Shown piece by piece: positions 1 to 64,000 of a DNA stretch of 64,000 nucleotides. The stretch's first letter is position 1, and every line of letters starts with the position of its first letter. The notes beneath the pieces were generated by a model that saw only the letters and a list, made by a program, of their open reading frames with translations, did no database searches and was not told the DNA's origin. The translations under genes were made by a program, and so were the position numbers. Source of the stretch: the human T2T-CHM13v2.0 reference genome, Homo sapiens; the NCBI RefSeq assembly GCF_009914755.1, contig NC_060928.1; one strand, 5' to 3'.

Positions 1-522
1 TTGAAGCAGCCATCCCATTACTGGATATCTACCCAAAGGATTATAAATCATGCTGCTATAAAGACACATGCACATGTATGTTTATTGCGGCACTATTTGC
101 AATAGCAAAGACTTGGAACCAACGCAAATGTCCAAAAACGATAGACTGGATTAAGAAATGTGGCACATATACACCATGGAATACTATTCAGCCACAAAAA
201 ATGAGTTCATGTCCTTTGTAGTGACATGGGTGAAGCTGGAAACCATCATTCTCAGCAAACTGTGGCAAGGACAAAAAACCAAACACCCGATGTTCTCATT
301 CATAGGTGGGAATTGAACAATGAGAACACATGGACACAGGAAGGGGAACATCACACACTGGGGCCTGTTGTGGGGTGGGGGGGAAGGGATAGCATTAGTA
401 GATATACCTAATGTTAAATGACGAGTTAATAGGTGCAGCACACCAACATGGCACATGTATACATATGTAACAAACCTGCACATTGTGCATATGTACCCTA
501 AAGCTTAAAGTATAAAAAAAAA
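1..522 (+). mobile_element. LINE-1 (L1PA4-6-like) 3' end: ORF2 C-terminus, 3'UTR and poly(A); continues left of the window
   Basis: CATCCCATTACTGG..TATAAATCATGCTGCTATAAAGACACATGCAC, G-rich tract at 361-390, ends CCCTAAAGCTTAAAGTATAAAAAAAAA. Inserted into a MER44 whose remaining part starts at 523. Confidence 0.95.
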
Positions 523-689
523 TTCCAAGGTGGGATGGTATGAGACTTCATCATGCTACTCAGAATGACATGCAATTTAAAACCCATGATGTGTATTTCT
601 AGAACTTTCCACTGGATATCTTCCATCTGTGGGTGACTAGATAGCAAACTGCAGAAAGCAAAACCCCACGCATAAGAAGGGGACCACTG
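523..689 (+). mobile_element. MER44 (Tigger7-derived DNA transposon), terminal part
   Basis: GAGACTTCATCATGCTACTCAGAATGACATGCAATTTAAAAC and terminal ATAAGAAGGGGACCACTG match the MER44 end. Paralogous to 23710-23866. Confidence 0.8.
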
Positions 690-729
690 TGGAGGTTCTG
701 AGGCATCAGCCAATTGTTACGAGTAATCT

Positions 730-928
730 TGGAAGCAGATCCTCGTGTATGCAGTTGAGCCCTCAGATGAGAACATGTCCTGGCTAACAGACGGTGTCTT
801 CATGAGAACCTGAACCAGAGGTGTCTGGCTAAGCTATGAGTGCATTCCTAACCCTTAAAACCTAGAAGATAAGTATGTGCTGTTTTAAGCTGCAAGGGTT
901 AATTTGTGCAGCAGCAATAGATAAACCA
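730..928 (+). mobile_element. MLT1 (MaLR LTR, MLT1F-like) 3' part
   Basis: GAGCCCTCAGATGAGA..GCTAAGCT..TGCTGTTTTAAGCTGC..AATTTGT..GCAGCAATAGATAA is a typical MLT1 3' end. Confidence 0.65.
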
Positions 929-3900
929 TGTCTATGGCAACAGGCAGCTGCTACTTGGCTTCAGCAAGTGATTGCTGTGCAGGAATAACAGTGGTATTGG
1001 CCAAGAAATGGCCATACTTGAAAGCAGAAAATGTAGACTTTTGCATGAATCTTGCTGTACAGCAGAAGCTGCCTACTGGTACGTAGGTCAGTGTATCTTC
1101 AGACATGCTTTGGCACCTGCAGCATTTTAACAAACTAATTGCATGTTCTGATTCTATCTACCATGGCAGGTCAGGTGATTAAGAAAAAGGCTCTAAACTC
1201 AATCAGTAAATAGATGTTGCTAGGGCTTCAGTACTCCTTCTTCCACTAGTGTCCCTTTACTTACACTCACTTTTGTCAACAGGATAAGCGCATTTGGACC
1301 ATGATAGAATGGATCAGCTAAGGAACATTGACATTGGCTTTTTGAAAATGGAATATGGTTTCATGGATTTCGGGGTCTGGGAGAGCTAAGAAGATCACAA
1401 GAGACTTGTAGAGTCAGACTAGAATGGAGTAAGCAGGATCAGGCATGCCAAGGTCTTGTTAGAGTTTCTACTGCATCAGTTGACACTCATTGCCACCCTA
1501 GAGATCATAATTCTGAGACTTCCCTCACTCAGTACAGGGAGTTCCCTACTAATAGCCTTGAATGGGGTAGCTCTGTCCAATAAAATGAGCTGTCTACATT
1601 TCAACTACTCTAATAGTCTAATTTCACCTGACTCTTATTTTTCAATCTTAAAATTCCTGGATTGGGTTAGATGGAGATTCAAGTCCCATCTACTCCTATT
1701 CAACTGTGGCTCTGGTTCTAATTTAGGGTCTTCTAGCCTGGGCAGTAATTCCCTGCGTACTGATGAAGGAACTGCCTCATAGGCTTGTTTAAAATCAGAT
1801 GACAATTTACCCATGTTTTCCTTAAAAAAAAAAAATTGCCAGCTCTTGGGAACTTAGTATATGTTCTTAAAGGAAAAATGCCCTCTCAGTAGACTGCTTG
1901 TGACTTATGACCTGTCTGGCTCCTAGAAGTACCCATTGTAGGTTGGATGACGGACAGCTGCAGATTCTTGTGCCACCAGTGAAGCAATCTAGACCATTGA
2001 GCATGTTCCAGAGGTGGGGTCAGGCTGGGTAAGCTGAGGCCACAGCCAGCATTAGAATAGGGACCTAAGCCAGAACTGGGGCAGCTGTCAGATGGGGTTC
2101 ATTCAGTCCTCAGTAGGAAGGACTCAGGGAAGGGCAAGTTGAGTGTCTACTTCCCTCTGAGGGGAAGACTAAAGCTGGGCAGCCTGCAAGGGTGTGAAGG
2201 TGAGGGTTGAGAGGCTTACCATGAAGTGCCAGTCAACTCCACGTAGGGTCTGCAATAGAATGCATCCAGGGAGGTCTTACTTTTTTCACCCCGGATGTAG
2301 AAATCTCGAACTGCTTGTCTTTTGGTGTAGAATGGAGGTACGTCTGACTGATGCCAGCTGACCCAAAATAAACCTTACTCTCCACTTCACCTTGCAGATT
2401 TGGAATAGAAGCAGATTCAGAGTTGAAAGCTTTTGGTGGGCTGTCCTGGAGTAGACCTCCACCAATATCCCATGTACCTCCCTCTCCATGTTGGGTGTCA
2501 AATGAGGCTTGTACACATGAGTGCCTATCATGTGACAGAAGCTAAGATTCTAGTTACTGCTGACTCGCATCTTATTCCTGAAGACTTTGGATAAGGCCTA
2601 ACATACCTAGCTGCAGGACACATCTGTCCCCTTTCTGTAGAAAAGGCAGCTAGGCCTTGTAGTGACAGGCCAGGATGGTGTGGTCCTGGTGGAGATGGAG
2701 CAGAAGCATGGAAGTACTGATGTGCTTCTCCTTGAGTATTCCCTTTTGCTCTCTGCTCAGGGAGGCTTACTACCTGAGTCCCATGTCTTGGCTGGACCCA
2801 TCCGTGAGGTGAGGAGATGAGTCTCCTTTCCGGGTAAAGGCCCAGCTTGACTTGGAATCTTGGCTTTTCCCTCTTGATTGTATATATTCTAGTTTCCTCT
2901 AAGATGTAGCTTTAGAAGTACACACTGGGATATTTTGGAGTGGTATGGATTGGACTAGAACTAATTGTGAATTCATTGAAAGAATCGTGTATACTACATA
3001 CATAAGAGACTAGAAAAGATGACTGGGCTGGTTAACTTCACCTACCCTATTCATAAGCACAAATTTTGTGGTGCTGTGGGGCATTTCTAGATGACTGCCA
3101 TCCATGCCTCTTGGCTTCATCAGTGCTCCTTTAGTGCAATCAGTGGACCACTTGCTGTGGTTATTGGCCAACAAGTGCATTTGTAGACATGGTGTATATC
3201 TTATCCTACCTAACCCCATGGTTAAGGTATCTTACTGGATTCTAGATCTTAGCTTAAATGTGGCTGCCTCAAAGTGCCTCTACTTCATGCATGTGAATGA
3301 ATGTGCAACCCCCATTTAGTCTGTCACAACTTGTGACCACATTTATTCCCCACTACTATGAACATGAGGACAGATAAACTACCTCTAGCCCATCACTATG
3401 ATTCTAATGTGTAACTCCATGTTTGAAACAGACTTCATTTCTGACCTGACAGGAAGCTGGGCACTAGAATATGTCTATGGTACTGTTGATTTTGGACAGG
3501 ATCTTCCATGTAGTGGGGAAAACAATAAGAAGTTTGAAGTATGCTGGGGGTGTGATGTGTACAACATAATACTTACGTGAGAATGTCTTATAGTGCCATC
3601 ATTCTGCCTACCACAGAAAGGTCAGGGACCCTATCTCCCCGTGGAAAAAAGGGGTAGGAGGTCCTGAAATGAGTCAAGTGAGTCCATGCTGATGCTGCTC
3701 ATGAGATGTTGACTGTTCCCACCACCATAGCATGAGCTCCAAAGATAGTGTGCTCAGTGGATATGGAGATGGAAGGAGATGCATCTGAGAACCAGTGGGT
3801 CTGTATGCCTCTTGGAAAGATTGTGGTGTTCTTTCTGGTTCTCCTTCACTTTGACCTGTGAGCTTCTCTGTAATCTGCATAAGCTGGCTAGCTGCTTCTA

Positions 3901-4656
3901 ATTCTGGTTGCGCTACACCTTCAGATACTGTTAGACTTAATATTTTCTACCACTTGTTCAGATATGGGATCATAGAACTTGATATGTGTTCAGATTCCTC
4001 CCCCATAACTTTGGCCATTGTCTTAGCTTTGTGGTCTTAAGCATTCATGTCCTTGTGAACTAAGTTTCTCTTCGATGCTTGCCTCTTCATGAGCTTCAGT
4101 GCTCAAGTGTTGTTCCTCTGTTCAGTGAAGCTGTAATGCTATTCCTTGAGCAAAAATAACCAAACCAATCTATACTGACCACAGTTGTGGGTGACTCATA
4201 GATCACAGTTCTGGGTGACCTCTATGGGCCCCAGAACTCATCTGGCAGCACCAACAATATCTGAAGAACGGGCAGGAAGGGCTGTGCTTAGTTTGCGTTT
4301 TCATGGCATGAAGTAATTGTTGCAAGTAGAACTAAAGATGACCATGTGAGCCTCCCTGGAAGGGTTCCATCTGATTGCTGTGGGAGGTTCTATTGGAGAC
4401 CAATTTTTCTTTTTTCTCCAAGGGCCAGAAATCTGGTCTGTAGTCAGTGAAAGCACAGTACTGGAGGGTCCTTGAGTAGTATCCATTTGTTTGACCAGTA
4501 TAGGTGAGATGGGCATTTGGTGTTACACATCTGCTCTCCTTGGGATGTTTATTCCTTCACTCGAATAGACATAAGAATCCTGACAAACTATTTGGTAATT
4601 TAAAAAAAAATAATAAATGTAGCAGTCCATGTGGTTCTTGTTCAGGTCAGATAAGG

Positions 4657-5733
4657 TATTGGGAGAACCCACCCCCAATATTTCAGTGTAGGTCCTTTCT
4701 ATTTTCCATAAGTGTCGGCTGGCTGAGAAATACACAGACAGTACAAAGAGAAGAATTTTACAGCTGGGCCGCCAGGGGTGACATCACATATCAGTAGGAA
4801 CATGATGCTAGCCTGAGTCTCAGACCAGCAAGTTTTTATTAAGGGGTTCAAAAGGAGAGGGGGATGTAAGAACAGGGAGTAGGTACAAAGATCACACACT
4901 TCAAAGGGCAAAAACAGAACCACTAATAAGGGTCTAACAAAGATCACATACTTCTCAGGGAACAGGACAAACGGCAAAAGTGGAACCACTGATAAGGGCC
5001 CAACAAAGATCACAAGGCAAAGAGCAAAAGCAGAACTACTGATAAGGGTCCGTGTTCAGTGGTGCACGTATTGTCTTGATAAACATCTTAAACAACAGAA
5101 AACAGGGTTCAAGAGCAGAGAACCAGTCTGACCACAAATTTACCAGGGTGGAGTTTTTCCCCACCATAGTAAGCCTGAGGGTTCTGCAGGAGACCAGGGC
5201 ATATCTCAGTCCTTATCTCAACTACACAAGACCTTCCCAGAGCAGCCATTTATAGACCTCCCTCCAGGAACACATTCCTTTCCCAGGGTATTAATATTAA
5301 TATTCCTTGCTAGGAAAAGAACTTAGTGATATCTCTACTTGCATGTCCGTTTATAGGCTCTCTGCGAGAAGAAAAATATGGCTCTCTTTGCCCAACCCTG
5401 CAGGCAGTCAGACCTTATGGTTGTCTTCCCTTGTTCCATAAAAATCGCTGGTATTCTGTTCTTTTTCAAGGTGCACTGATTTCATATTGTTCAAACACAT
5501 GTTTTACAATTTTGTACAGTTAACACAATTATCACAGTGGTCCTGAGGTGACGTACATCCTCAGCTTATGAAGATAACAAGATTAAGAGATTAAAGACAG
5601 GCATAAGAAATTATAAAAGTATTATTTGGGAACTGATAAATGTCCATATTAAGATGAAATCTTCACAGTTTATGTTCCTCTGCTGTGGCTCCAGCTTGTC
5701 CCTCCATTTGGGAGTCCCTGACTTCCCACAACA
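4657..5733 (-). mobile_element. MER11 solo LTR (HERV-K11/HML-8 family)
   Basis: Minus strand begins TGTTGTGGGAAGTCAGGGACTCCC and ends AATATTGGGGGTGGGTTCTCCCAATA. Internal AAAGATCACA..GATAAGGG repeats. 6-bp TSD ATAAGG (4651-4656) / GTAAGG (5734-5739). Confidence 0.93.
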
Positions 5734-7629
5734 GTAAGGATTTGTGATCTCTTAGGTCAAAAAAACCCTCAAGGCATTTGAGTTGTCAAATGTGAGTCAT
5801 CATGGCTACCCTCTGTTCTTGGAAGGAGAAGTGGAGACTAAAGATGGCCAGCTTGAAGCTTGCTTTCAAACGCCTGAACTATAACTTGCCTACTAGTTCT
5901 GTCCACACCCATTGCCCAGGATTTAATCACGTGGTCACAACTAGCTGAGAGGCTAGTCATATAGTCTTGGCTGGTGGAGCTGTGTGGCTACCTAACTTGG
6001 AACTCTTACCTACAGGAAGAAAATGGGCATTGGATAACTAGTCCTTTATACCACCTAGGATAAGAAAATCCTTCAGATTTAGTACCAAATGTAACTACAT
6101 GTGTAACAATGTGCTAGCTCACCTGATCAGGTTTCCTCTGCCTCACCCATGGTAGATTGATGGTGTCTAACTTCTTAGAGGTTGGCTACCTGGCTTAGAT
6201 CTGTCTAGCTTTGAGTGTAGTGGTCACACATTAGCTACTGGCAGGTTCAGGCAGAGTTCTAGTGTTCTAAGAACCTCATGTGAGGCCACCACTAAGAACT
6301 CATGGGCCTATGGAGCACCCACCACATTGGTGTTTGTGCACTTTCTGGCCTCTGAGGCTGGTGTCTTCAGTACCTCACCAGAATCTAGGTAAAGCAGCAT
6401 CATGTTGTCTAGCTGCAAGGCCTGGGTAAGGTATAGTAGTAAAATTTTCATATTGTGTCTTGTATTCTTGGGCTATGGAAATGTGAAAATAGGGATTGGG
6501 TACGAAGCTACTTAAGCAGCTCTGGTGAGGGGTGGAAAAATAGCAGGAAGGAACTTCCTCTTATTTCCTGCTGCAGCCCTTCTAGTATACTTAGAGATTT
6601 GGTGCTTTCTAGAAAGACATTTTAATGCTGATCTGAGAGGGTAGATGAGGGAAGCATAGTGGGCCTATTTTTCAGCACCCATGAGTCCATTAACCTTGGT
6701 CAGTAGGTAGCTGTGGCAATTTTGGTTTCTTTGCTTTGAAGAAAGGTTAACTAAGCCCTGAGTGTAGGGCAGGATAGGCCCTAGGAAAAGGGGTAGGTTC
6801 TACTCCTTGAAGCTTTGGCCTTTCATATTAGGTTTCAAGCCTCTATGCTATTCATTGTTGGGTATGAATACTGAGGGTTAGCCAACCACTCCCTATTGCC
6901 TGACTTCAAAGAGGCTGTCAAAGCTAAACATAAGTTCCATCTAACCTCAATAGGTGACAGCGCAAGAACTAATATAACAAATATCTGTACTGAAGGGCTT
7001 TTGGAAAGACTGATCTGATCCAACTAGAGGCATTGCACTGTTATTATAATGGTACCTGAAACATCTATGTGACATATGCAGGTCAGAAGCTATTCTGAGC
7101 CTGAGGTACATGCATCTTGGCAGTCAATGTTAAGATGAGAGAATGGGAACATGGAAAGAACTTGGGTCCCTGATGACACCACTGAGCTTCAGGACTCAGT
7201 AATGACTTACCACCAAAGCTGTTGTATGTGAAAAACAACTTAAAATGTATTCAAGCCAAACTGGTACTCCATGTAGAGAAAACTGAGTTACTTACATGAA
7301 AAACCTCTGAGTAAAATAGACTCTTTGAAATCTTCCCCTAACTTTACCCAAAATATTTCTATAAGTCACATAAGGGGAAAAAGAGGAACAGGGTCAAGTT
7401 CCCTGCCTCAATGCTGCAACTGCACTGTTCTACTGGCTAACAATGCTCACTTAGATGCAAGAAATGAACGGCTCAGCATAACATAAACAAATATTAAGGT
7501 GGACAAGTGTAAGTCCCTTTGTCTTTCTTAAAATGGTCTCAACATCTGAGCCCAGCTCAACTTAGTTGAGTCCCTGTGTTAAGAACTTTTCAGGTAAATT
7601 TAGTCAATTCAGGTTCCATTCCCATTTAG

Positions 7630-8050
7630 TTTGGGTTCTCTAGAAAGGCAAGAAATTGGGCACAAGTAACTTAATGGAGGTGATTCCTGGAAGCATGGTG
7701 AGGGGAAGTGGCTGGGAAGGCAGGTAAACCATGAAAGTGTCAGTGAGTGGGTGAGCCCAGTGGGAAACTGGGGCCAATTCTGAGGACCCTCTGGGACAAT
7801 CCTGAGGAATGGTCTATGTGGATGGCTGGGATGAGCTGCTCACTCCTGCCCCTCACTGGCTGAGGACTCTTCCTGAAGATGAACTGTCAGCACTCCTGGC
7901 CTGTTCTGCATGTAGGCAAGCATGTTTCTGTGGCAGGAGAATATGGGTACAGACAGAGCCTTAGAACACAACATGTGGACGTGTCTGCAGGGGACCTCTG
8001 GTGGCTTCAGCAAATACGCAAGTGGAGCTGAGTCTACCTGACTCACCTGG
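7630..8050 (-). mobile_element. Old MLT1 (J/K-like) LTR remnant; paralogue at about 31045-31480
   Basis: TTGGGTTCTCTAGAAAG..GGGCACAAGTAACTTAATGGAGGTGATTCCTGGAAGCA resembles the antisense MLT1 3' end. Confidence 0.45.
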
Positions 8051-10979
8051 ATCCACATATGCCCCTACATTGAGTTCACTATGTCTTAGTTTGACAAGTC
8101 ACCGTTTTGAAGAATCACCCATTACAAAGAGTTTTAGAATAACATGAGTATGACAAGCTACTCTCTCCACAGCTTCAACTAGTCCCTAGATAGTAATGAA
8201 TATGCATCTTCTAACCACCATTCTAGATGTCTGTTTTGCCAATATCTGTGATCTAGATGGCTTATCCAGTAGGGCGAGCCAGTGACTCATGAGGGGTCTC
8301 TAGCACCTGTGTGCCTTGCCCCTGCCAGGCCATGGTCGCTGTAGTAACTGTACTGTTGAACCACGACTGGTGGCAGCAACATGTAAGACTATATACATTC
8401 CTCTTTCTGTAGCAGAAACCTATTTCCTCATGAGCACTTGGGATCATTTGCCACTGCCTGTAGAGTAACGCCTGTCCTTGCCTACGTGTCCACTGCTATA
8501 AAATGCCCGAGTGTCCACTAGTAGCTACAGGTGTTCTGGAAACCCATTCAGTGTCTCCTAGAGGAAGTATTCCTCTCTTGGGGTAGGCAAGACTGGGTGG
8601 GGAGGGAGACTGTTCTCACTACTGGAGTTGAAGCTATAGAACAGAGCAGTCGATGTCCAGGTGGGACTCCAGTTGCAATGGTGACAGGAGCCACATTACA
8701 CTGCCCTTTGGTACTGGATGCATTTTTCTCTGGGGAAAAAAGTTCTTTCCAACTTACAGTATAACCAACAAACATGCCTTTAATTGGATGTGTGAAAGGT
8801 TTGATATGAAACCAGCTGAATTAAATACCCAAAGAGTTTGAGGCACAGAGAACTAGGACCCTGGATAATAGGGTGAGCTGAAGATGGGAAAAGGGTAATG
8901 AAGGTGGCAGGGCACAGGTGCTTCCAGATGGGCCCACTACTGATCTTAAAGCCACCTGAGACAGGCCTGAGGCTCAGCCTGCAGGGGCTGTCTGGTCAGC
9001 TGCTCACTCATCTTGAGGCTTTTGACTCCTCCTCTTCAGGAAATGGTTCTCCAGGTGTTCACATGGATGAGCTTTTACATGGTTTGCTGAACTCAGAAAG
9101 CACCGTGTGTTGACTTTTTGTTCATGGCATGTGGAGTGTGACCCTGTTCATTCTGGGAGTGTGCAGCTGAAGGGCTGACCTAGCAACTCCAGGGTGTCTT
9201 TGGTGCTTTCAGAGCATTCTTCTACCAGACGTCAAAGTGGTCCAAGCACTCTAGGGCTGCAGCATATGAAAAAAATGCCATGACAGAGTATAAAGATAGA
9301 ATGTGCTCAGATGAAAACTGATGAGGTGGCTGACAGCATCTGCTTGTAAGAAATAATCCTGGGCACATGGGAGCTTCTTTCAGGCGCAGCTGCTGCTCAT
9401 GAATGACTTCCTGGGACCAGTGGCTGCCCAGAAGTTGAGTAAGTCTTGGGGTAGATTCTTTGGAAGTAGACTTGATGAGAATCTGAGAGATGAGGACATA
9501 GAGCCAAGTAAAACTTAGTGGTAGAGAAGTGAGATGGAGGAGGGAGGTGAGCAGGGATGTAACAAGAGTCCCTTGGATGGTGAGCACAGCTTGATATGGC
9601 AGGCCCATAGAGGCTATATGGGTCATATCACAGTTGCCTCAATCAGTGAGGGAGCAGAAGTACTTATCTATTGTTACTCTGTCTGATACTGGGTAAAGCC
9701 AGACATTATGGGGACACAAACTGCCAGGTCCTTTGTGTTCCCTTAGGGCAGCCCCAAACATAGATGCAGGCTGTTGGCAGTCATATAGGTAGGCACTGGT
9801 AAGCCAAACATGAGAGAGGGGCCTAAGGAGATGTTGGCAAAGCACTGCCAGCTTCTGCTGGAAGGTCCTGGGAGCCCAGAGCTCAACGAAGAAAATCCTG
9901 TCTCTTCATTTCAAATGCTGAGAAATCAAGACCCAGATCCAGAAACTGGAAGTGTCATGGATTTAAGGTGAAATCAAGTGATATGGTGGTTTGTTTGAAC
10001 TCCCCCAGACAGACCCTGAGAGATTCATGTGGAACTAAGGAATTACTCCTAGAAGAAACAAGTGAAGGAGTGGGAGGCAGCACAGGGATTGGTAGGAGGC
10101 CAGGCAATGTTGTGATAACCATCAAAATCCTGCAATCTGTAGGCTCCTTGGGTCCCTCAGGGGAGTGCAAGATTGTACTTTATACCTTGGTTGTGGAATG
10201 AGCTTTCACAATCCTGTATCTGAGAGTCATTCATGGTGGCTCTGATTTGGTGTAGGGGGACATTTTAAACTCTGACACTTGTAACTGTTCATGTATGCAT
10301 GCAAAATGGGTCCAATAATCCAAGGGAAGTGCTCCCAAGACTGCAGGTGCTTGCCCTTGAAGACACACACAAGGTAGGGCTGAGGAGATAGACATGCTTA
10401 ATAGGAATCTGAGGTTATAGGCATGGCATGAATGTGATTCACTCATAGTTCTAACCACAAAATTAGTGACACAGAGCTGTCCTTACCACTACCCCTTCCA
10501 GGCATCCTTTGCCATGTGCCTGTCCTTGGAATGTGACACCTCTTGATTTGCAGGTTTGAGCGGGGGCTTCATCCCAAGAAGGCCATTTTTTCAAAGTAGC
10601 CTTGTTACATCATTTGACCTAAGGCCCAACTGAAGGTCTTAGATACTTATGTGGGAATTGTTAGGAGATTGGAATGAAACCTCAGAAATGGCCTGTATTT
10701 ATTTTTTTACCTCTTCAAGTCATAAAACACACTGCACTGACAATATACAGCCTTTGGCTGCAGTGGTCCTGTGTTGCTTTGTGTCACTTTAAACTCCTGT
10801 GTGTGTATGCAAGATGTTTCTTTCAGCGAATCTCTTCTAGAAAGGGAAAGAAGTTCTTGAGAATGGGGTTATCCTAAAGATGCTTCTGCCCTTGGCCTCC
10901 ATTTCATGTTACAACAGCAGATAGACTAGCATGTTTAACTGGACAAGTGAATTTCATGTTTCTGTAGCTGTCAAAATGG

Positions 10980-11390
10980 AGGGGTCTTCCAGGAAGCAGA
11001 TCCTCAGGCGGAGGTAAACCTCAGGAAACTCACCAGGGAGCGGTCTGGGGTTCCACACCTGTGAAAGGAAGCAGGACCAGGGAGAGGAAGGAGCTGAGCT
11101 GTGATGCAGCTTCCACAGAAGCTCTGGCCAATCCTGTGGGGAGTTGTGATACCTAGATGACCTTTTAGAGCTGAGTTGGGATGAGAGGTCTTGGGTTTTA
11201 TTCCCAGATTGACAAGCACTGGAAGGCAGCTACCTGGGAGGGGATGTGGCCTTAGGTGAGATTCTCTTCAGCTGAGCTAAAGCTTAGGAGGGGCCGACAG
11301 CTAATAGACTCCTGGGGCATCCAGTGGTTGCAGAACAAATCCTTCCTTCCTGAAAGGGGAAATAGTGGCTGCATCCTTTCACCTACTATG
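10980..11390 (-). mobile_element. Old MLT1 (G/H-like) LTR; paralogue at about 31826-32225
   Basis: GGGTCTTCCAGGAAGCAGATCCTCAG..GGAAGCAGGACCAGGGAGAGGAAGGAGCTGAGCTGTGATGCAG..GTGGCCTTAGGTGAG..TTCAGCTGAG are antisense MLT1 motifs. Confidence 0.55.
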
Positions 11391-23350: not shown

Positions 23351-23356
23351 GAAGCA

Positions 23357-36312: not shown

Positions 36313-42418
<6,106 letters not shown>

Positions 42419-42421
42419 TGT

Positions 42422-48578: not shown

Positions 48579-49167
<589 letters not shown>

Positions 49168-49236
49168 AACTGCTTATAACAAAGTTTACCAGCATAGATG
49201 CCATTTTTATAGACAAGGTATTGCTTTAAGATGTCA

Positions 49237-52164
<2,928 letters not shown>

Positions 52165-55950: not shown

Positions 55951-56202
55951 CGCATATTCTCACTCATAGGTGGGAATTGAACAATGAGATCACATGGACA
56001 CAGGAAGGGGAATATCACACTCTGGGGACTGTGGTGGGGTCGGGGGAGGGGGGAGGGATGGCATTGGGAGATATACCTAATGCTGGATGACACGTTGGTG
56101 GGTGCAGCGCACCAGCATGGCACATGTATACATATGTAACTAACCTGCACAATGTGCACATGTACCCTAAAACTTAAAGTATAATAAAAAAAAAAAAAAA
56201 AA
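55951..56202 (+). mobile_element. Very young 5'-truncated L1 (L1Hs/L1PA2 boundary, ACG/A type), 252 bp
   Basis: GAGATCACATGGACAC..AATATCACACTCTGGGGACTGTGGTGGGGTCGGGGG matches the L1Hs 3'UTR; ACG at 56092-56094; A at the Ta 'G6015' position; pure A tail; perfect 14-bp TSD AAGAAGTGTGTGTA (55937-55950 / 56203-56216). Confidence 0.96.
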
Positions 56203-56999
56203 AAGAAGTGTGTGTAAACACAGTTGGGCTTGGGTGTACACAAGTCCTGCCTTCTAGCCCCCTGTCTGAGTGTGCCAATATGTATCCAAAGTCAATTCTA
56301 TTCCACAAGATTCCTAGAGGACGGGAAAGTCTGAGTGGTGGGGCCTGGCCCATCCACTATGGCAGTCACCTGGATGTTGCAGGGGAGCGGCCACTGAGCC
56401 ACACGTGACGTTCCTGGTTTGGGAATAGTATATCATTGGTGTTACTTCTGTGGCACAGCTCTACATTCTACAAGCTTAAGACCCATCTACATCTTTTCAG
56501 GTCTCACAGAAGATGCAGTAGGACTGATCATTTTGTAAATCACTTTCCTCTGAGGACTGTACTGGCCTGGAGATGAATATTCAACTCTTCATTTCCCACT
56601 ACCAGTAGAGTGGTTGAGTGTGGATCCTCCCTGGCATCACACTGCATGTATAAAGCCAGTTCTTGCACTCTAGGCTTTTGAACCCATAGTGGATGGTGCT
56701 TTCTAATTTTAGAAGGTAGAACCAACTCTGGATTAGGTGTGTTGGGTTGGATAAATAAGCCATGTGGAAAGTGCTCTTGGTGAGGAGCCACACACTAGGC
56801 AAGAAGCCATGCTAGAGGTAAGATCACTGGAATCTAGTGCCATAACAAGTGGGAGAGTTAGGGTGTAGTTACAGAAATGAGAGGAATCCATAACCATGAC
56901 AGGTCAGGGTTGCCAGCATAGGGCAGAACATGTCACTTGGGAGTTGAGGAAGACTGCTATATTCTGGCATTCCAGGCACAGAGAGGATTTGCATTCAAG

Positions 57000-57330
57000 G
57001 ACCTATTTAGAAACAGGTTGAAGTGGAATTTGACATGGAGTAGGTATGTAGAAATCAAATCCTATCTAAGGATGAGAAAGGAAGCAGGATTGGGTGGCAG
57101 GAACACTTAACTACAGTGTGGACCCAGAAATTCCTTGGCCAGTATGGTCAAGTGTGTGGCCCATCACAGTTGTTTAATGGTGGCCTGGGATCACTGGCCT
57201 TCACTGACCTGCTGTACTCAATGATTGGATGAGGGATGCTAGGGGAAGGGCAGGCCCTTGGAGCTGAGGCAAACCCTGTAGGAGGTGGTGGCTGGAGGCT
57301 GCTGGCTGTGCTCCCAGCACCTGAGGCAAT
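57000..57330 (-). mobile_element. Old MLT1 (G-like) LTR remnant
   Basis: GGAAGCAGGATTGGG..CCTTGGCCAGT..ATTGGATGAGGG..CCCTTGG..AGCTGAGGCAA..GCTCCCAGCA are antisense MLT1 motifs. Confidence 0.5.
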
Positions 57331-58569
57331 AAGTCCTTATTGAAGAGAGATCTGGAAATATATTCCCATGGCCTCCAAATCCAGTGGAATTGTCTACCCT
57401 TTCTTGGCTCTGGCTTTTGTTCACACATATGGATAGGCCCAGCACAGCTTTCTTGCCTAGGCCCTACCTTTCCTACTGAGTTCCAAGTGAAATCTGAGCT
57501 TCAGATACTATGACTGAAGTCAGAAGCCATGACTATGACTAGTTTGTTAGGAGACAACTGTAGTCAACTTAGATTCTTTTTAACTAGGGTTAGTATAGGA
57601 GGCTTATGTTTTGCAGAGTCTAAACTTTCAGAACCATCGCGTAGCATATATGGCAAGAGGGGTGGTGCAGGTGGTTGTCACGATGCTTAATGTCACTTGC
57701 ATTGTTAGCATGCCATACTACTTTGGTCAACTTTGCAATTTCCTTGTCCCAGATGGTTTGGACTGCAGGGAGGATTTTCTTTGTCTTGGTCATGTGTAGG
57801 TTCAGGATTTAGGACCTTTTAAAGCTACCCTTTATCTTGACCCTCTGTATTTTGCCACTTGCATGGAAATGTATCCAAGGAGGCACAATCCAGCCAGAAC
57901 TTTGTCACTGGCTGGAGCTGACCAATTATAGGCTTCTTGTCCCAGGCTTTTCAGGTTGAAGATGATGTCTAGGCAAGAGAATCATGTATAAGTTCTCTTA
58001 CAGAAATAAATAGAATAGAAAATATTCAGGACAGGGAAGTGTACTCCAACCCTTTGCTTGCCTCATGACAAAGTGAATGTCTCCCACTTAGACCCTGAGC
58101 CATCAGCAGATGAGAATAGGAGGAAAAGCCTAAAAGGTCTCTTACTGCCTGGAATTGGTGCTTGTATAAGCATGGAGGCCAGATAGGCAATATGGGCTGT
58201 ACAGGTACTAGAGTTGATCCTGAGGCAAGGCAACTCCTATGTGAAGCCTATCATTCCTTGAGTAGCAGCCTTCCAAACAGAACAACCCTTCAGCTTGTCA
58301 CTGTAAGGGACTGGAGTTTTAGGAAGTGGCATATTAACACAGTGTTAAAAATAACTGCTGGTCTGTATCCTGACACATGTAAGTCCCCTGTCTCAAGCCA
58401 GACCTCTATTATACCCTGACCTTCTCAGCAATGAATACAATGTCCTCAATAGCAGAGGTCCCTAACTGAGGTCTCCAAAGCTGTGGCACAGGGAGTAACT
58501 GAGCCACAAGGCAAAGTGTAAGATATTAGTGATAGAACCCAGGGCACAGAAGGCAGTCCGTGCAGGGTG

Positions 58570-59120
58570 GGAAGCCTGTGACATGGCCCCCATTAATATT
58601 TGCTTCTGGTATCCTTCCTATGGTAAGAGCCTTCACTCGAATGTGGATGTAGTGACTTGTTGCTTGACAAACAGATAATGGAAGAAGTGATGGCGTGTCA
58701 TCTGTTATGAGTCTATAAAGACTGTGGCTTCTCTCAGGAGTCCTTACTCTTTATTGGTCTTTGAATATGTTTCCTAGGAGAAATGAGCTGTGTTAACCAA
58801 CCCTTGGGGCGGCCCACTTACTGTGGCCAAAACGAGAAACCTGTTTGACAGACTGTGAGGAACTGAAGCTCACCACCAACTTTGAGCTGAGAAGTAGACA
58901 TTGTGAGGTGTGGGAACTGCCATGAGTCCACCTTGCAGCAGATCCCCTTACTAGTTGAGCCTTGAAACGAGAGTACATCCCCAGCTGAGATCAACTGTCT
59001 CATGTGACATTCACGTAGGTGCCTCTAGCTTCTTTCCCTCAGTCCCTAAACTGGGGCAGTGGTCAAAGACAAATGTTTGCTATGCCATGTTGCTAATTTT
59101 TCAGGTAAGTTCAGTCCATA
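58570..59120 (+). mobile_element. MLT1F-like LTR without the MER44 insertion (paralogue of about 23070-24115)
   Basis: TAGTGACTTG..AAACAGATAATGGAAGAAGTGATGG..AAAGACTGTGGCTTC..TGAGGAACTGA..GCAGATCCCC..AGTTGAGCCTTGA. Confidence 0.6.
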
Positions 59121-60744
59121 AAAACATTCAAAAACTTATGTTAAATGGTGAATTGTAAAACAGAAATGAAATGCTGCTAGTAGATTCAGTCTGATCTTCA
59201 GACATGTTTTGTTCAATGGGTCAAAAATGGGTCAAAAATGGATCAAAGTAAATCCATGTTCTTATTCTTTCACCACAGTCAGCCTAGTGACAACATGAAT
59301 GCTCTAGTTCCTCAGTAAGTGAGACTACTAAAATGGGAGCCTGCATCTTTCTCCACTGTCCTTTTACATGCAATTACCTGACTCTACCTTTAGCCTGTCA
59401 ACAGGTTAAAGGTATTTGGATGAAAATACAGTGGGGCCCTGAATCACCTAAGAACTATAGGTGCTATCTTCTGAAAATGGAAAAAGGGGGGGATAGGAGT
59501 GGGTGTAGTACTAGAGATCCTACCAGGCTAAGGACAGGGATGCTACACCCTTGAGGATCCATTGTCTGAGATGGTCCCTCTTAGGACTACCCTGGAGACC
59601 ATCTTCCTGAGATCTGGATTCACCCCTCAGTACAGGGAGCTTAGCTACTCACAGTCACATAGAAGTCATGTGATGCACATATTAACCAGGCTAGTAGACA
59701 CACTTTACTAAGAACTAGGTGAGACTACTCTTAAAGCTCTTGGGCTGGGTTAGATGTATATTTAAGTCTCAACTATTCCCACCTGTGAGTTGTAGCGCTA
59801 ATCCTAACTTAAAATCTTGTGGTCCAGAAGTAATTCCTCTCCTACTGGTAAGGGACATGTCCTGTAGGCTTGCTGGGCATCAGAGGGCAAACTATCCATG
59901 CTGTCCTCAATCCTTCCAGCTCCTAGGGAAACTGGTAAATGTTTGACAAGGCAAAATAATCTAAATGCAGGAGTTGAAGTGATTTAGGTTGTTGGCTCCT
60001 ATAAGGTACAGTAACTTCAGACTGGCAGGGAGTGGACAGTTGTGGATTCTTGCACCACCTGTGGGGAACAAGTCTCCAGGGTGTTACAGGGGTGGGGCAT
60101 GGGGAGAATGAGCTGTATCAGCAGCTGGTGTCAGAATAGGGACCCCAGCTGGAACTGGAGCAGCTGTTGCAGCTGTGGGACCACTCAATCCCCAGAATAG
60201 GAGGGACCTGGGGAGGGCAGGTTGGACTTTCCATCTCTGAGGGGAAGGTGGAAGCTGGACAGCCTGCAGAGGATTAGGGTTGTGATGCTTGGCCTGATGA
60301 AGTGCCCATCTACTGCAGGCAGGGTCTGTGCAGAACATATCCAAGGAGGTCTTGCTCATTCTTCCTGGTTGTAGAATTCTTCAGAACAATTGGCCTTGGC
60401 ATTGAAGGTAGCTCAAAACCCATTATAGTGTCCTGGAGTAAAACTGATCCTATAACCCATGTACCTCCTTCCCTCTTTCCATGGCAGGTGTGAAGTATGC
60501 ATATGAGGGGACTGCATTGGGAACATCTGGAAGCTGAGGTTCTTGTTACTCTGAATCCATTTTGATTGTGACATTCTACTTGGGCTTTGGCTGCTTCAGA
60601 GCTCATGCCAGCAAGAAGGTCTTTTTCCCCTTCTATTATAAGGCAGCTGGACCTGTAGCATCAGCTCAGGATGGCATAGTCCCGGGGAGGAGGAGGAGGC
60701 TGTGCTTAAGTCCTAGCCCCTAACTGTTCCCTGGTGCTCTCTGC

Positions 60745-62470
60745 CCATGCTCTTGGGCAGCTCAACCCCTGTGGCTTTGTAGGGTACCATATCAGGGAAG
60801 CAGCTTCCAATATTTCAACATAGGTTCTTTCTATTTTCCCCAAGTGTCATCTGGTCTGAGAAAGAGTACAAAGAGAGGAATTTTACAGCTGGGCCACCAG
60901 GGGTGACATCACATATCGGTAGGTCTGTGATGCCCACCTGAGCTGCAAAACCAGCAAGTTTTTATTAGGGTTTTCAAAAAGGGAGGGGGTTGCACAGACA
61001 GGGAGTAGGTCACAAAGATCACATGTTTCAAAGGGCAAAAGGCAGAGCAAGGATCACATGTTTCTGAGGAAACAGGACCAGGGCAAAATCAGAAACTCCT
61101 GATAAGGGTCTATGTTCAGCAGTGCACGTATTGTCTTGATAAACATCTTAACAGAAAACGGAGTTTGAGAGCAGAGAACTGGTCTGACCTCAAATTTACC
61201 AGGGCTGGGGTTTCCCAATCCCAGTAAGCCTGAGGGTACTGCAGGAGACCAGGGCGTGTCTCAGTCCTTATCTCAACTGCATAGGACAGACACTCCCAGA
61301 GTGGTCAATTATAGACCTCCCCCCAGGAATGCAATTCTTTTCCTAGGGTCTTAATATTATATTCCTTGCTAGGAAAAGAATTTAGCAATATCTCTCCTAC
61401 TTTTGCACATCCATTTATAGGCTCTCTGCAAGAAGAAAAATATGGTTCTTTTTGCCAAACCCCACAGGCAGACAGACCTTATGGTTGTCTTCCCTTGTTC
61501 CCTAAAATTGCCATTATTCTGTTCATTTTCAAGGTGCAGTGATTTCATATTGCTCAAACACACATGTTTTACAATCAATTTGTACAGTTAATGTAATCAT
61601 CACAGGGTCCTGAGGTGATGTACATCCTCAGCTTATGAAGATAACAGGATTAAGAGATTAAAGTAAGACAGGTGTAAGAAATTATAAGAGTATTATTAGG
61701 GAAGTGATAAATGTTCATGAAATCTTCACAATTTATGACCTCTGCTGTGGCTCCAGCCAGTCCCTCAGTTTGGGGTCCCTGACTTCCAACAACAGTGCAG
61801 CCTCCCTCCCAGCTGCTTTCACAGGCTGGCATTGAGTGTCTGGTTTTCCAGGCACATGATGCAAGCTGTCAGTGGATCTACCATTCTGGGGTCTGGAGTA
61901 TGGTGGCCCTCTTCTCACAGCTCCACTAGGGTGCTGCCCCAGTAGGGACTCTGTCAGGTTGCTCCAGCCCCACATTTCCCTTTTGTATTACCTTAGCAGA
62001 GTTTCTCCATGAGACAACTGCCCCTGCAGCAAACTTCTGCCTGGACATCCAGGCATTTCCGTATATCCTCAGAAACATAGGCAGAGGTTCCCAAACCTCA
62101 ATTCTTGACTTCTGTGCACCTGCAAGCTTAACACCATATGGAAGCTGCCAAGGTTTTGTTTGCTCCCTCTGAAGCCATGGCCCAAGCTGTACCTTGGCCT
62201 CTTTTAGTCATGGCTGGAGTGGCTGGAACACAGGGCACTAAGTCCCTATACTGCACACAGCACAGGGACCCTGGGCCTGGCCCAGGCCCATGAAACCATT
62301 TTCTCTTCCTAGGCCTCCAGGCCTGTGATGGGAGGGCCTGCTGTGAAGACCTCTGACATTTCCTGGAGACATATTCCCCATTGTCTTGGGTATTAAATTT
62401 TTTCTCCTTGTTACTTATGAAAATTTCTGTAGCCAGCTTGAATTATTCAGAAAATGGGATTTTCTTTTCT
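60745..62470 (-). mobile_element. THE1 internal region (MaLR-int), interrupted by MER11 and by an L1
   Basis: CTTGGGCAGCTC.ACCCCTGTGGCTTTG.AGGGTAC / AGCCTCCCTCC..CTGCTTTCACAGGCTGGCATTGAGTGTCTG..GCAAGCTGTCAGTGGATCTACCATTCTGGGGTCTGGAG..CAGAAAATGGGATTTTC. Confidence 0.9.
60790..61794 (-). mobile_element. MER11 solo LTR inserted in THE1-int
   Basis: Minus strand begins TGTTGTTGGAAGTCAGGGACCCCAAAC. Body homologous to 4657-5733 with fewer internal GATAAG repeats. TSD is degenerate (GTACCA/GTGCAG). Confidence 0.92.
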
Positions 62471-64000
62471 TTTTTTTTAATTACACTTTAAGTTCTAGGG
62501 TACATGTGCACAACGTACAGGTTTGTTACATATATATACATGTGCCATGTTGGTGTTCTGCACCCATTAACTCATCATTTACATTAGGTATATCTCCGAA
62601 CGCTATCTTTCCCACCTCCCCCCACCCCACAACAGGCCCCAATGTGTGATGTTCCCCTTCCTGTGTCCAAGAGTTCTCATTGTTCAATTCCCACCTATGA
62701 GTGAGAACATGTGGTGGTTTGTTTTCCGTCCTTGTGATAGTTTGCTCAGAATGATGGTTTCCAGCTTCATCCATGTCCCTACAAAGGATATGAACTCATG
62801 CTTTTTTATGTCTGCGTAGTCTTCCATGGTATATATATGCCACAATGTCTTAATCCAGTCTATCAATGATGGACATTTGGGTTGGTTCCAAGTCTTTGCT
62901 ATTGTGAATAGTGCCTCAATAAACATACGTGTGCATGTGTCTTTATAACAGCATGATTTATAAGCCTTTGGGTATATACCCAGTAATGGGATGGCTGGGT
63001 CAAATGGTATTTCTAGTTCTAGATCCTTGAGGAATCTCCACACTGTCTTCCACAATGGTTGAACTAGTTTACAGTCCCACCAAGAGTGTAAAAGTGTTCC
63101 TATTTCTCCATATCCTCTCCAGCACCTGTTGTTTCCTGACTTTTTAATGATTCTCATTCTAACTGGTGTGAGATGGTATCTCATTGTGGTTTTGATTTGC
63201 ATTTCTCTGATGGCCAGTGATGATGAGCATTTTTTCATGTGTCTTTTGGCTGCATAAATGTCGTCTTTTGAGAAGTGTCTGTCCATATCCTTTGCCCACT
63301 TTTTGATGGGGTTGTTTGATTTTTTTTCTGGTAAGTTTAAGTTCCTTGTAGATTCTGGATATTAGCCCTTTGTCAGATGGGTAGATTGTAAAAATATTCT
63401 CCCATTCTGTAGGTTGCCTGTTCACTCTGATGGTGGTTTCTTTTGCTGTGCGGAAGCTCTTTAGTTTAACTAGATCCCATTTGTCAATTTTGGCTTCTGT
63501 TGCCATTGTTTTTGGTGTTTTAGACACGAAGTCCTTGCCTATGCCTATGTCCTGAATGGTATTGCCTAGGTTTTCTTCAAGGGTTTTTATGGTTTTAGGT
63601 CTAACGTTTAAGTCTTTAATCCATCTTGAATTAATTTTTGTATAAGGTGTAAGGAAGGGATACAGTTTCAGCTTTTACATATGGCTAGCCAGTTTTCCCA
63701 GCACCGTTTATTAAATAGGGAATCATTTCCCCATTTCTTGTTTTTGTTAGGTTTGTCAAATGTCAGATGGTTGTAGATGTGTGGTGTTATTTCTGAGGGC
63801 TCTGTTCTGTTCCATTGGTCTATAACACTGTTTTGGTACCAGTACCATGCTGTTTTCATTACTGTAGCCTTGTAGAGTAGTTTGAAGTCAGGTAGGGTGA
63901 TGCCTCTAGCTTTGTTCTTTTGGCTTAGGATTGTCTTGGCAATGCAGGCTCTTTTTTGGTTCCATATGAACTTTAAAGTAGTTTTTTCCAATACTGTGAA
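62461..64000 (-). mobile_element. LINE-1 (L1PA5-like) 3' part; continues right of the window
   Basis: Poly(T), TTTAAGTTCTAGGGTACATGTGCACAACG; ORF2 C-terminal frames (..[18 protein letters not shown]..; [23 protein letters not shown]). Confidence 0.96.

What the first reader, a model, noticed from the sequence alone, without database searches (positions are those of the whole stretch)
1..64000. Candidate + strand germline non-coding precursor (piRNA-cluster-like or macro-lncRNA)
Seen: no coding exons. Among the clearly dated retroelements and Hsmar1, about 17 kb is antisense (four L1 loci, Hsmar1, two MER11, MER34-like, THE1-int) and under 2 kb is sense. TEs carry many microdeletions, and the + strand looks G/T-skewed by eye. 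Established: antisense TE bias and G+T skew mark germline-transcribed DNA, and uni-strand piRNA clusters collect antisense TEs and evolve by local duplication. Inference: a highly expressed + strand transcript that could yield antisense small RNAs against L1, HERV-K11, THE1 and Hsmar1. A long intron of a + strand gene is the main alternative.
Basis: inference. Interest (0 to 1): 0.8.

Follow-up and report, generated by a model that had tools for sequence, protein, structure and literature searches.

The report
Slice of known oocyte piRNA cluster

Summary
The + strand is G/T-rich (GC skew +0.065, TA skew +0.075). No coding exon was found. L1-like DNA is 12.6 kb antisense against 0.76 kb sense, and an Hsmar1-type mariner and a DPPA2-like pseudogene are also antisense. 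LTR orientations could not be tested.

Two independent oocyte small-RNA studies define a + strand piRNA cluster here:
- hg19 chr4:78,106,722-78,396,420 is the second most productive human oocyte cluster, with 15.41% of uniquely mapped piRNAs.
- GRCh38 chr4:77,189,993-77,459,766 is "piC-CCNG2-CXCL13", syntenic across mammals.

By coordinate arithmetic the window sits about 70-74 kb inside the 5' boundary. The arithmetic uses gene anchors recalled from memory and cross-checked at both ends.

Details I found in no paper read or search made:
- About 72% of the window's non-TE DNA consists of ancient head-to-tail duplicates (65-92% identity). Copies were found only at chr4:80.557-80.746 Mb, all in + orientation.
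- Alu density falls about 20-fold near the cluster's 5' edge.
- CpG o/e is about 0.1.

The cause of the GC skew is unsettled. Verdict: real, correctly read, already known.

The parts
1..64000 (+). Internal segment of the + strand piRNA precursor locus piC-CCNG2-CXCL13. The published cluster spans roughly window -74/-69 kb to +200/+216 kb.
   Evidence: Published coordinates were placed using the hub's CCNG2 position and recalled hg19/hg38 gene coordinates. They were cross-checked by a chemokine exon at chr4:80,948,570. G+T is 53.5% on the + strand.
1..522 (+). 3' end of a sense-oriented L1. It continues to about -1810 outside the window.
   Evidence: It matches the minus-strand L1s in inverted orientation at 83-89% identity.
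524..13711 (+). Right part of duplication unit U1. The whole unit runs from about -15.9 kb to +13.7 kb.
   Evidence: It is collinear with 23706-34542 at 67-78% identity. Genome-wide copies were found only at chr4:80.557-80.746 Mb, all +.
4656..5733 (.). Solo 1.08-kb LTR (MER11-like; name not tested). It is inserted in U1 and absent from U2.
   Evidence: There were 2,824 genomic candidates. All 39 that were scored are 88-91% identical over the full length. Orientation was not determined.
12646..34542 (+). Duplication unit U2, head-to-tail with U1.
   Evidence: BLAST of U1 against U2 gives blocks of 67-78% identity, one of 85.5% (17378-21058) and one of 92.5% (21789-22828).
17012..17378 (.). Solo LTR of about 370 bp of a very abundant family (THE1/MaLR-like; name not tested). 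It is present in U2 only.
   Evidence: There were 9,369 candidates. Scored copies are 82-86% identical. It fills the gap in the U1/U2 alignment.
21130..22344 (-). Antisense L1 3' fragment.
   Evidence: It matches the minus-strand L1 at 36325-37546 in direct orientation at 81% identity.
28583..29814 (-). Hsmar1-type mariner element, antisense. It is inserted in U2 only.
   Evidence: 32-nt terminal inverted repeats. Pfam Transposase_1 on the minus strand at 28991-29155, E 2.9e-15.
36313..44515 (-). Antisense L1 of about 6.1 kb (36313-42412), followed by a second 2.1-kb copy of its 5' part (42424-44515, 83% identity).
   Evidence: Pfam RVT_1, Exo_endo_phos and L1 ORF1 domains, all on the minus strand. 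Self-BLAST.
48824..49577 (+). Two Alu-like SINEs in sense orientation. The second ends in a run of about 45 A.
   Evidence: Sub-threshold Metazoa_SRP matches on the + strand. A-run at 49533-49577.
50180..51975 (-). Old antisense L1 fragment.
   Evidence: It matches 36519-38344 in direct orientation at 71.6% identity. Weak RVT_1 hit on the minus strand at 51784-51975.
52240..52932 (-). DPPA2-like pseudogene (LOC100421141), antisense.
   Evidence: Pfam Dppa2_A on the minus strand, E 9e-11. Two further minus-strand copies lie at chr4:80,691,141-80,691,990 and 80,722,153-80,722,574, at 64-66% identity.
55954..56204 (+). Short sense L1 3' stub with an A19 tail.
   Evidence: It matches 290-522 in direct orientation at 86.6% identity. 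A-run at 56186-56204.
56205..60806 (+). Further piece of the locus-private duplicate backbone.
   Evidence: Of 45 genome matches, 18 (counting the query itself) lie at chr4:80.566-80.730 Mb, all +. The other 27 cover only a 44-bp LTR edge.
60807..61796 (.). Second MER11-like LTR, in the same orientation as the one at 4656-5733.
   Evidence: It matches that copy in direct orientation at 77.9% identity.
62472..64000 (-). Antisense L1, continuing to about +70.4 kb outside the window.
   Evidence: It matches 36313-37817 in direct orientation at 89% identity. The chain extends to +70,450.

Best explanation
The window is an internal 64-kb slice of the known uni-strand oocyte piRNA cluster piC-CCNG2-CXCL13.

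Shown in print: a locus of about 270-290 kb on the + strand yields a large share of human oocyte piRNAs. These are PIWIL3-associated short piRNAs and PIWIL1/2-associated long ones.

Shown here: the window holds no gene. Its long L1s, an Hsmar1 and a DPPA2-like retrocopy lie in minus orientation, so a + strand transcript carries them in antisense.

Inferred: one long + strand precursor starts near the RefSeq lncRNA LOC107986292 (-80.2 to -66.6 kb), which overlaps the published 5' boundary. It runs through the window and is processed into piRNAs that pair with sense L1 and ERV transcripts during oogenesis.

Also shown here: the non-TE backbone is a stack of ancient head-to-tail duplicates private to this locus. 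The cluster therefore grew at least partly by tandem duplication, which keeps orientation.
For: - Literature. PMC13111593 gives cluster chr4:78106722-78396420|+ (hg19), 289,699 bp, 15.41% of uniquely mapped piRNAs, with L1 41,330/6,619 bp and ERV 51,118/23,219 bp antisense/sense. PMC10964541 gives Human-Cluster71, NC_000004.12:77,189,993-77,459,766, +, and names piC-CCNG2-CXCL13 among the top five syntenic clusters.
- Placement. The hub puts the end of CCNG2 at window -89,146. With recalled CCNG2 ends (hg19 78,091,213; hg38 77,170,060) the cluster starts at about -73.6 kb or -69.2 kb and ends at about +216 kb or +200 kb. The same T2T-to-hg19 offset puts the only IL8-family exon downstream on chr4 (80,948,570) inside the recalled CXCL13 span.
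- L1 orientation. L1-like DNA is 12,632 bp antisense against 762 bp sense in the window, and 18,422 against 2,573 over -74 to +74 kb. It is balanced upstream of the cluster (3,279 against 2,612). All 12 ORFs with L1 protein domains are on the minus strand. Hsmar1 is on the minus strand.
- Boundary marks. Of 87 Alu-like hits, 83 lie in the 140 kb upstream of -60 kb and 4 in the 134 kb after it. CpG o/e is 0.08-0.17 from -60 kb on.
- GC skew. It is positive in 16 of 17 8-kb bins from -72 kb on, against 9 of 16 upstream.
Against: - No small-RNA or RNA-seq reads could be mapped here, so piRNA output of these particular 64 kb is not shown. The browser figure is an unreadable PDF.
- The placement rests on gene coordinates recalled from memory, though they agree with each other at both ends.
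- By count the window's L1 loci are only 4 antisense against 2 sense.
- G+T above 50% is not specific to the cluster. It holds in 13 of 16 8-kb bins between -200 and -80 kb and changes sign only at about -184 kb.
- The polarised-substitution test did not show the intron-type A>G over T>C excess. The ratio was 1.12, not significant, against 1.4-1.6 reported for introns.
- PMC13111593 itself notes that across the top clusters L1 insertion frequency is not strongly biased.
Confidence: 0.9

Rival explanations
1. The G/T skew is a replication-associated (or CpG-island-anchored) long-range strand asymmetry and says nothing about transcription. The TE orientation in this one window is sampling noise.
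For: - G+T exceeds 50% from about -184 kb, where the sign flips next to a CpG-island-like stretch at -184.3 to -182.6 kb. That is far upstream of the cluster.
- Polak and Arndt 2009 (PMC2817419, passages only) report asymmetries running hundreds of kb downstream of CpG islands, with A>G/T>C about 1.09. My estimate of 1.12 is close to that.
- By count, the L1 loci are 4 against 2.
Against: - It does not explain the published + strand piRNAs.
- It does not explain why the L1 base bias is 88% antisense inside the cluster part held but balanced upstream.
- It does not explain why GC skew is strongest in the duplicate array rather than next to the sign change.
- It can be true of part of the skew without touching the main reading.
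Confidence: 0.05
2. The window is a long intron, or read-through, of an ordinary + strand gene such as CCNG2 or an unannotated gene, and has no special small-RNA role.
For: CCNG2 and lncRNA LOC107986292 are both on the + strand upstream (hub table). Antisense bias of long L1s is also typical of introns (established knowledge, recalled).
Against: The RefSeq table for T2T shows no gene spanning the window. CCNG2 ends 89 kb upstream. Two small-RNA studies call the interval a piRNA cluster.
Confidence: 0.03
3. The GC skew is mostly inherited, not acquired. An ancestral unit that happened to be G-rich on the + strand was copied many times in one orientation, so the window-wide consistency of the skew reflects duplication rather than a strand-specific mutation process.
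For: - 32,337 of 44,617 non-TE bases have a local paralogue. 75 direct HSPs stand against 2 inverted.
- GC skew is highest exactly over the array.
- TA skew outside L1 is small (+0.022), unlike the usual transcription signature.
- Substitution asymmetry is weak.
Against: - The copies have diverged by 25-35%, so an unmaintained skew should have decayed in part.
- C>T exceeds G>A on the + strand (rate ratio G>A/C>T 0.74, p = 0.01; 0.78, p = 0.056 without CpG contexts), which would feed G>C.
- This rival concerns only the origin of the skew, not the identity of the locus.
Confidence: 0.35

Closest known systems
piC-CCNG2-CXCL13 (Human-Cluster71; chr4:78106722-78396420|+ in hg19), a mammalian oocyte piRNA cluster
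   Same: Same interval, same strand, no genes, antisense L1/ERV load. The window is judged to be part of it.
   Different: Nothing differs in kind. The papers (sections and tables read) do not describe the head-to-tail duplicate backbone, the Alu drop at the 5' edge, the CpG depletion or the GC skew.
piC-ZNF518B-WDR1 (chr4:10115601-10436958, +), the top human oocyte piRNA cluster
   Same: Intergenic, about 300 kb, unidirectional, rich in antisense L1 and ERV, syntenic across mammals.
   Different: It is a different locus. No sequence similarity to this one was seen in the genome searches. Whether it also has a duplicate backbone or a skew was not examined.
Drosophila flamenco uni-strand piRNA cluster
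   Same: A single-strand precursor with transposon fragments trapped in antisense. PMC13111593 draws the same comparison.
   Different: Flamenco works in somatic follicle cells of flies with other PIWI partners. There is no homology. The mammalian cluster's backbone is non-TE duplicated DNA, with TEs at about 45% by the published table.
Transcription-associated strand asymmetry of human introns
   Same: Excess of G+T on the non-template strand.
   Different: Here the GC skew (+0.073) far exceeds the TA skew (+0.022) outside L1. The A>G/T>C ratio estimated from paralogues is 1.12, not 1.4-1.6.

Membership tests
Uni-strand oocyte piRNA cluster piC-CCNG2-CXCL13 | Lies within the published cluster coordinates on the published strand | tested here: met
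   The window is 89-153 kb past the end of CCNG2 (hub table). The clusters start about 15.5 kb (hg19 set) or 19.9 kb (GRCh38 set) past it and run 290 or 270 kb. The anchors are recalled gene coordinates, cross-checked by a chemokine exon at chr4:80,948,570.
Uni-strand oocyte piRNA cluster piC-CCNG2-CXCL13 | Dense, uniquely mapping, single-strand, PIWI-bound small RNAs (1U bias, 2'-O-methyl 3' end) | not testable with these tools
   No read data are available here. It is reported for the interval as a whole in PMC13111593 and PMC10964541. Density over this window was not seen.
Uni-strand oocyte piRNA cluster piC-CCNG2-CXCL13 | Transposon fragments predominantly antisense to the precursor | tested here: met
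   L1-like DNA is 12,632 bp antisense against 762 bp sense. Hsmar1 is antisense. LTR orientation was not determined here; the published figure for the cluster is 51,118 against 23,219 bp.
Uni-strand oocyte piRNA cluster piC-CCNG2-CXCL13 | No protein-coding gene in the body | tested here: met
   304 ORFs of 60 aa or more gave only L1 and Dppa2_A matches above chance. RefSeq lists one pseudogene (hub table).
Uni-strand oocyte piRNA cluster piC-CCNG2-CXCL13 | One long precursor transcript from a defined promoter | not testable with these tools
   Inference only. LOC107986292 (+) overlaps the published 5' boundary. There is no CpG-island-like stretch between -100.8 kb and +74 kb.
Intron of a + strand protein-coding gene | Flanked by exons of one annotated transcript | tested here: not met
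   The hub's RefSeq table shows no gene spanning the window. The nearest + strand gene ends 66.6 kb upstream.
Replication skew domain (N-domain type) | Sign switch of the skew at an origin, followed by a gradual decline to the next origin | tested here: inconclusive
   A sign switch is seen at about -184 kb. No decline is seen over the 264 kb held plus three 10-kb samples out to +134 kb. Further sequence could not be fetched.

The most novel reading that the evidence does not exclude
The body of this piRNA cluster is not just a transposon trap. Its non-TE backbone is an array of at least 188 kb of ancient head-to-tail duplicates private to this locus. There are three age classes, at about 65-78%, 85% and 92% identity. 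The array carries three antisense DPPA2-like retrocopies.

On this reading the cluster grew by repeated tandem duplication of already transcribed units, which multiplies trapped antisense elements without changing their strand.

The G>C skew, CpG o/e of about 0.1 and the roughly 20-fold Alu depletion that set in near the published 5' edge would then be footprints of long-term oocyte transcription. They would let oocyte piRNA clusters be predicted from sequence alone.
Probability: 0.3. Interest if true: 0.5.

Novelty: already known. Interest (0 to 1): 0.3.

Why it matters
The locus supplies about 15% of uniquely mapped piRNAs in human oocytes, so its content bears on how L1 and ERV transcripts are held down during oogenesis. 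That role is already published.

This check adds two things:
- A reader working from raw sequence alone picked the right strand and the right kind of locus. TE orientation was a better guide than the skew.
- It gives a sequence-level anatomy of the cluster body: a same-orientation duplicate array, an Alu drop near the 5' edge, CpG depletion and a GC-dominated skew. These could be tested on the other published clusters as predictors and as clues to how such clusters grow.

Tried and rejected
- Rfam at gathering thresholds: 0 matches in the window. Tandem Repeats Finder: only 5 short arrays.
I used stop-free ORFs only, so old ERV or DNA-transposon protein remnants shorter than 60 aa were missed, except in the Hsmar1 region.
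- Family names and orientation of LTRs (MER11, MER34-like, THE1-int): no repeat library was on hand, so these were left untested.
- Polarised substitution counts:
  - A 3-copy alignment of 2,174 sites showed no significant asymmetry.
  - The two-agreeing-paralogue method on 8,763 sites gave C>T above G>A (p = 0.01). This weakened to p = 0.056 after removing CpG contexts and does not survive correction for six tests. A>G/T>C was 1.12, not significant. I judge this inconclusive.
- DPPA2 targeting by pseudogene-derived piRNAs: rejected as unlikely. The copy is only 64-78% identical to its relatives, including a 109-bp match on chr3 that may be the parent gene.
- The 231-aa ORF at 52926-53618 (minus strand): it has no Pfam match and its translation is Leu/Ile/Ser/Phe-rich. 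I read it as a compositional artefact.
- PF00048 search at E <= 0.01 did not find CXCL13. It appeared at E <= 10.
- Literature searches for strand asymmetry or segmental duplication in piRNA clusters returned nothing on this locus.
Full report
**What the window is**

It is human T2T chr4:80,600,001-80,664,000, as confirmed by the own-genome search. By the hub's RefSeq table it lies 89 kb downstream of CCNG2, in a stretch with no annotated gene except a DPPA2 pseudogene.

**Check of the observation: composition**

- Over the whole window GC is 43.6%, GC skew +0.065, TA skew +0.075 and G+T 53.5%. CpG o/e is 0.108.
- GC skew is positive in 49 of 64 1-kb bins and TA skew in 47 of 64.
- The two skews have different sources. 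In 15,478 bp of L1 blocks the TA skew is +0.233 and the GC skew +0.038. In the other 48,522 bp the GC skew is +0.073 and the TA skew only +0.022.
- So the T excess is largely the arithmetic consequence of A-rich L1 lying on the minus strand. The G excess sits in the rest.

**Check of the observation: coding potential**

I scanned all 304 stop-free ORFs of 60 aa or more (130 on +, 174 on -) against Pfam.

- 12 ORFs carry L1 ORF1, endonuclease or reverse-transcriptase domains, and one carries Dppa2_A. All are on the minus strand.
- 6 other hits lie below the curated cut-offs and I read them as chance.
- Nothing was found in 1-34 kb.
- Rfam at gathering thresholds found nothing.

**Check of the observation: transposon orientation**

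- Antisense L1. Self-BLAST together with the Pfam strand gives four minus-strand L1 loci: 21130-22344, 36313-44515, 50180-about 51975 and 62472-64000. The second is a 6.1-kb element plus a second 2.1-kb copy of its 5' part. The last continues to about +70.4 kb.
- Sense L1. There are two 3' stubs, at 1-522 and 55954-56204. The first continues to -1810 outside the window. The second has an A19 tail.
- L1 bases. With the window's own L1 as probe, L1-like DNA is 12,632 bp antisense against 762 bp sense in the window. Over the held cluster part (-74 to +74 kb) it is 18,422 against 2,573. In the 126 kb upstream of the cluster it is 3,279 against 2,612, which is balanced.
- Hsmar1. A mariner with 32-nt terminal inverted repeats at 28583-28614 and 29783-29814 has its Transposase_1 remnant on the minus strand, E 2.9e-15.
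- Alu. Two Alu-like SINEs at 48824-49577 are in sense orientation.
- LTRs. Two 1.08-kb LTRs at 4656-5733 and 60807-61796 belong to a dispersed family. All 39 scored copies out of 2,824 candidates are 88-91% identical. A 370-bp LTR at 17012-17378 belongs to a very abundant family with 9,369 candidates.
- By count the L1 loci are 4 against 2, which is not significant. The bias lies in length: the long elements are antisense.

**What it is**

A full-text search for 'piRNA cluster' with 'CCNG2' returned four listings. Three concern mammalian oocyte piRNAs; one of these is the preprint of another, so they are two works. The fourth is an unrelated zebrafish paper.

PMC13111593 (Nat Commun 2026). I read the abstract, section 12 and Supplementary Data 10 whole, Data 9 in passages, and the passages naming hg19.
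- It lists 'chr4:78106722-78396420|+' (hg19), 289,699 bp, 'between CCNG2 and CXCL13'.
- This is the second most productive piRNA cluster of human oocytes, with 15.41% of uniquely mapped piRNAs.
- Its TE content, antisense against sense, is L1 41,330/6,619 bp, ERV 51,118/23,219 bp, Alu 3,382/3,590 bp and L2 489/332 bp.

PMC10964541 (Genome Biol 2024). I read section 9 whole and one passage of the supplementary table.
- It names piC-CCNG2-CXCL13 among the top five clusters syntenic across mammals.
- It lists Human-Cluster71 at NC_000004.12:77,189,993-77,459,766, 269,774 bp, + strand.

The preprint 10.1101/2025.07.22.666229 was seen only in the search listing.

**Placing the window**

- The hub puts CCNG2 at window -101,999 to -89,146, a span of 12,854 bp.
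- From memory, not from a call, CCNG2 is at hg19 chr4:78,078,357-78,091,213 and hg38 77,157,207-77,170,060.
- That puts the two published 5' boundaries at about -73.6 kb and -69.2 kb, and the 3' boundaries at about +216 kb and +200 kb. The window lies wholly inside.
- As a cross-check, the only IL8-family exon on chr4 downstream of the window is at 80,948,570, + strand. It was missed at the stricter threshold. With the same T2T-to-hg19 offset it falls inside the recalled CXCL13 span.
- The RefSeq lncRNA LOC107986292 (+, -80.2 to -66.6 kb) overlaps the 5' boundary and may be the annotated 5' piece of the precursor. This is inference.
- I could not see the papers' browser figures (Supplementary Figs 13 and 14a are PDFs; the supplementary docx of the 2024 paper was unreadable). 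piRNA density over these particular 64 kb is therefore not verified.

**Added anatomy 1: a locus-private duplicate array**

- Window 524-13711 is collinear with 23706-34542 at 67-78% identity.
- With the upstream DNA added, unit U1 (-15.9 to +13.7 kb) lies head-to-tail with U2 (12.6 to 34.5 kb). Most blocks are 67-78% identical, one is 85.5% (17378-21058) and one 92.5% (21789-22828).
- The MER11-like LTR, the 370-bp LTR and the Hsmar1 each interrupt only one of the two units. They therefore arrived after the old duplication.
- Genome-wide searches with four backbone pieces found copies only on chr4:80,557,781-80,746,128, all in + orientation. The rest of the hits were short dispersed-repeat segments. 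The local counts, excluding the query itself, are:
  - 6 local matches of 40, the other 33 covering only a dispersed repeat of about 150 bp;
  - 14 of 17;
  - 2 long local matches, a 37-bp inverted one, and 38 LTR copies;
  - 17 of 45, the other 27 covering a 44-bp LTR edge.
- These searches score only the best candidates, so weak dispersed copies could be missed.
- Within the 128 kb examined, non-TE local similarity is 75 direct HSPs (53,334 bp) against 2 inverted (526 bp). 32,337 of the window's 44,617 non-TE bases have a local paralogue.
- The DPPA2-like pseudogene has two further minus-strand copies inside the array, at 64-66% identity. It was part of an old unit.
- The array lies wholly inside the published cluster bounds.

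**Added anatomy 2: boundary marks**

- Of 87 Alu-like hits in the 274 kb held, 83 lie in the 140 kb upstream of -60 kb. Only 4 lie in the 134 kb from there to +74 kb, and all four are in sense orientation.
- CpG o/e is 0.08-0.17 in every 10-kb bin from -60 kb on, against 0.15-0.47 upstream. Part of that difference follows from the loss of CpG-rich Alus.
- There is no CpG-island-like stretch at the cluster's 5' end.

**The skew as evidence**

- G+T above 50% is not specific to the cluster. It holds in 13 of 16 8-kb bins from -200 to -80 kb, in 16 of 17 bins from -72 kb on, and in all three downstream samples. The sign flips only at about -184 kb, next to a CpG-island-like stretch.
- GC skew is more specific: it is positive in 16 of 17 bins inside against 9 of 16 upstream, and it peaks over the array.
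- To ask whether a strand-specific mutation process is at work, I polarised substitutions with paralogues.
  - A three-copy alignment of 2,174 sites showed nothing significant.
  - Using two agreeing paralogues as the ancestral state (8,763 sites), the C>T rate exceeded G>A on the + strand (G>A/C>T 0.74, p = 0.01). Without CpG contexts the ratio was 0.78 with p = 0.056.
  - A>G/T>C was 1.12, not significant.
- Polak and Arndt 2009 (PMC2817419, passages only) give A>G/T>C of 1.4-1.6 for introns and about 1.09 downstream of CpG islands in intergenic DNA.
- So the classic intron signature is not seen, and the cause of the GC skew remains open. The candidates are an inherited unit composition multiplied by duplication, replication-linked asymmetry, and an oocyte-specific process.
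- In this case the TE orientation was the sound clue and the skew a weak one.

**Comparison and novelty**

- The locus is the published cluster itself, so the finding is already known.
- It works like other uni-strand clusters such as piC-ZNF518B-WDR1 and, by analogy, fly flamenco. PMC13111593 makes the flamenco comparison itself.
- I found no mention of the duplicate backbone, the Alu step, the CpG depletion or the GC skew in the sections and tables I read, nor in searches for strand asymmetry or segmental duplication with piRNA clusters. A paper on repeat-mediated expansion of mammalian piRNA clusters is recalled from memory but was not retrieved.

**Verdict**

It is not novel. Interest is low to moderate, and rests mainly on the unreported architecture and on the fact that the locus was recognisable from sequence alone.

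Noticed in passing
window 52100-53000 (-); G000 chr4:80,691,141-80,691,990 (-) and 80,722,153-80,722,574 (-): There are three DPPA2-like pseudogene copies, all on the minus strand and 31-39 kb apart inside the cluster. They are 64-66% identical to each other. The window copy is 78% identical to a 109-bp stretch on chr3:112,028,320-112,028,428, which may be the parent gene. The retrocopy seems to have been part of an ancient duplicated unit. It is too diverged to target DPPA2 mRNA.
   Followed up: partly
about window -63 kb (G000 chr4 about 80,537,000): Alu density drops sharply. 83 of 87 Alu-like hits lie in the 140 kb upstream of -60 kb and 4 lie in the following 134 kb. The drop falls within about 10 kb of the published 5' boundaries of the piRNA cluster.
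   Followed up: partly
window 40331-42412 and 42424-44515: The 5' 2.1 kb of the antisense L1 (ORF1 and upstream) is present twice in tandem at 83% identity. This is either a local duplication or a second 5' fragment inserted head-to-tail.
   Followed up: no
window 52926-53618 (-): This 231-aa stop-free ORF is the longest in the window. It has no Pfam match, and its translation is rich in Leu, Ile, Ser and Phe. It is probably an effect of local T-richness of the minus strand.
   Followed up: partly
window -8871 to -3121 (L024): A small local tandem duplication of about 3 kb at 70.7% identity lies inside unit U1. It is another sign of repeated duplication in the array.
   Followed up: no
about window -184 kb (G000 chr4 about 80,416,000): G+T and GC skew change sign from negative to positive next to a CpG-island-like stretch at -184.3 to -182.6 kb. 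This is the pattern described for divergent promoters or replication origins.
   Followed up: no
window 39226-39252 and 51644-51665: Runs of 27 and 22 T on the + strand lie inside antisense L1 blocks. They may mark tails of further antisense retro-insertions or junctions between L1 fragments.
   Followed up: no
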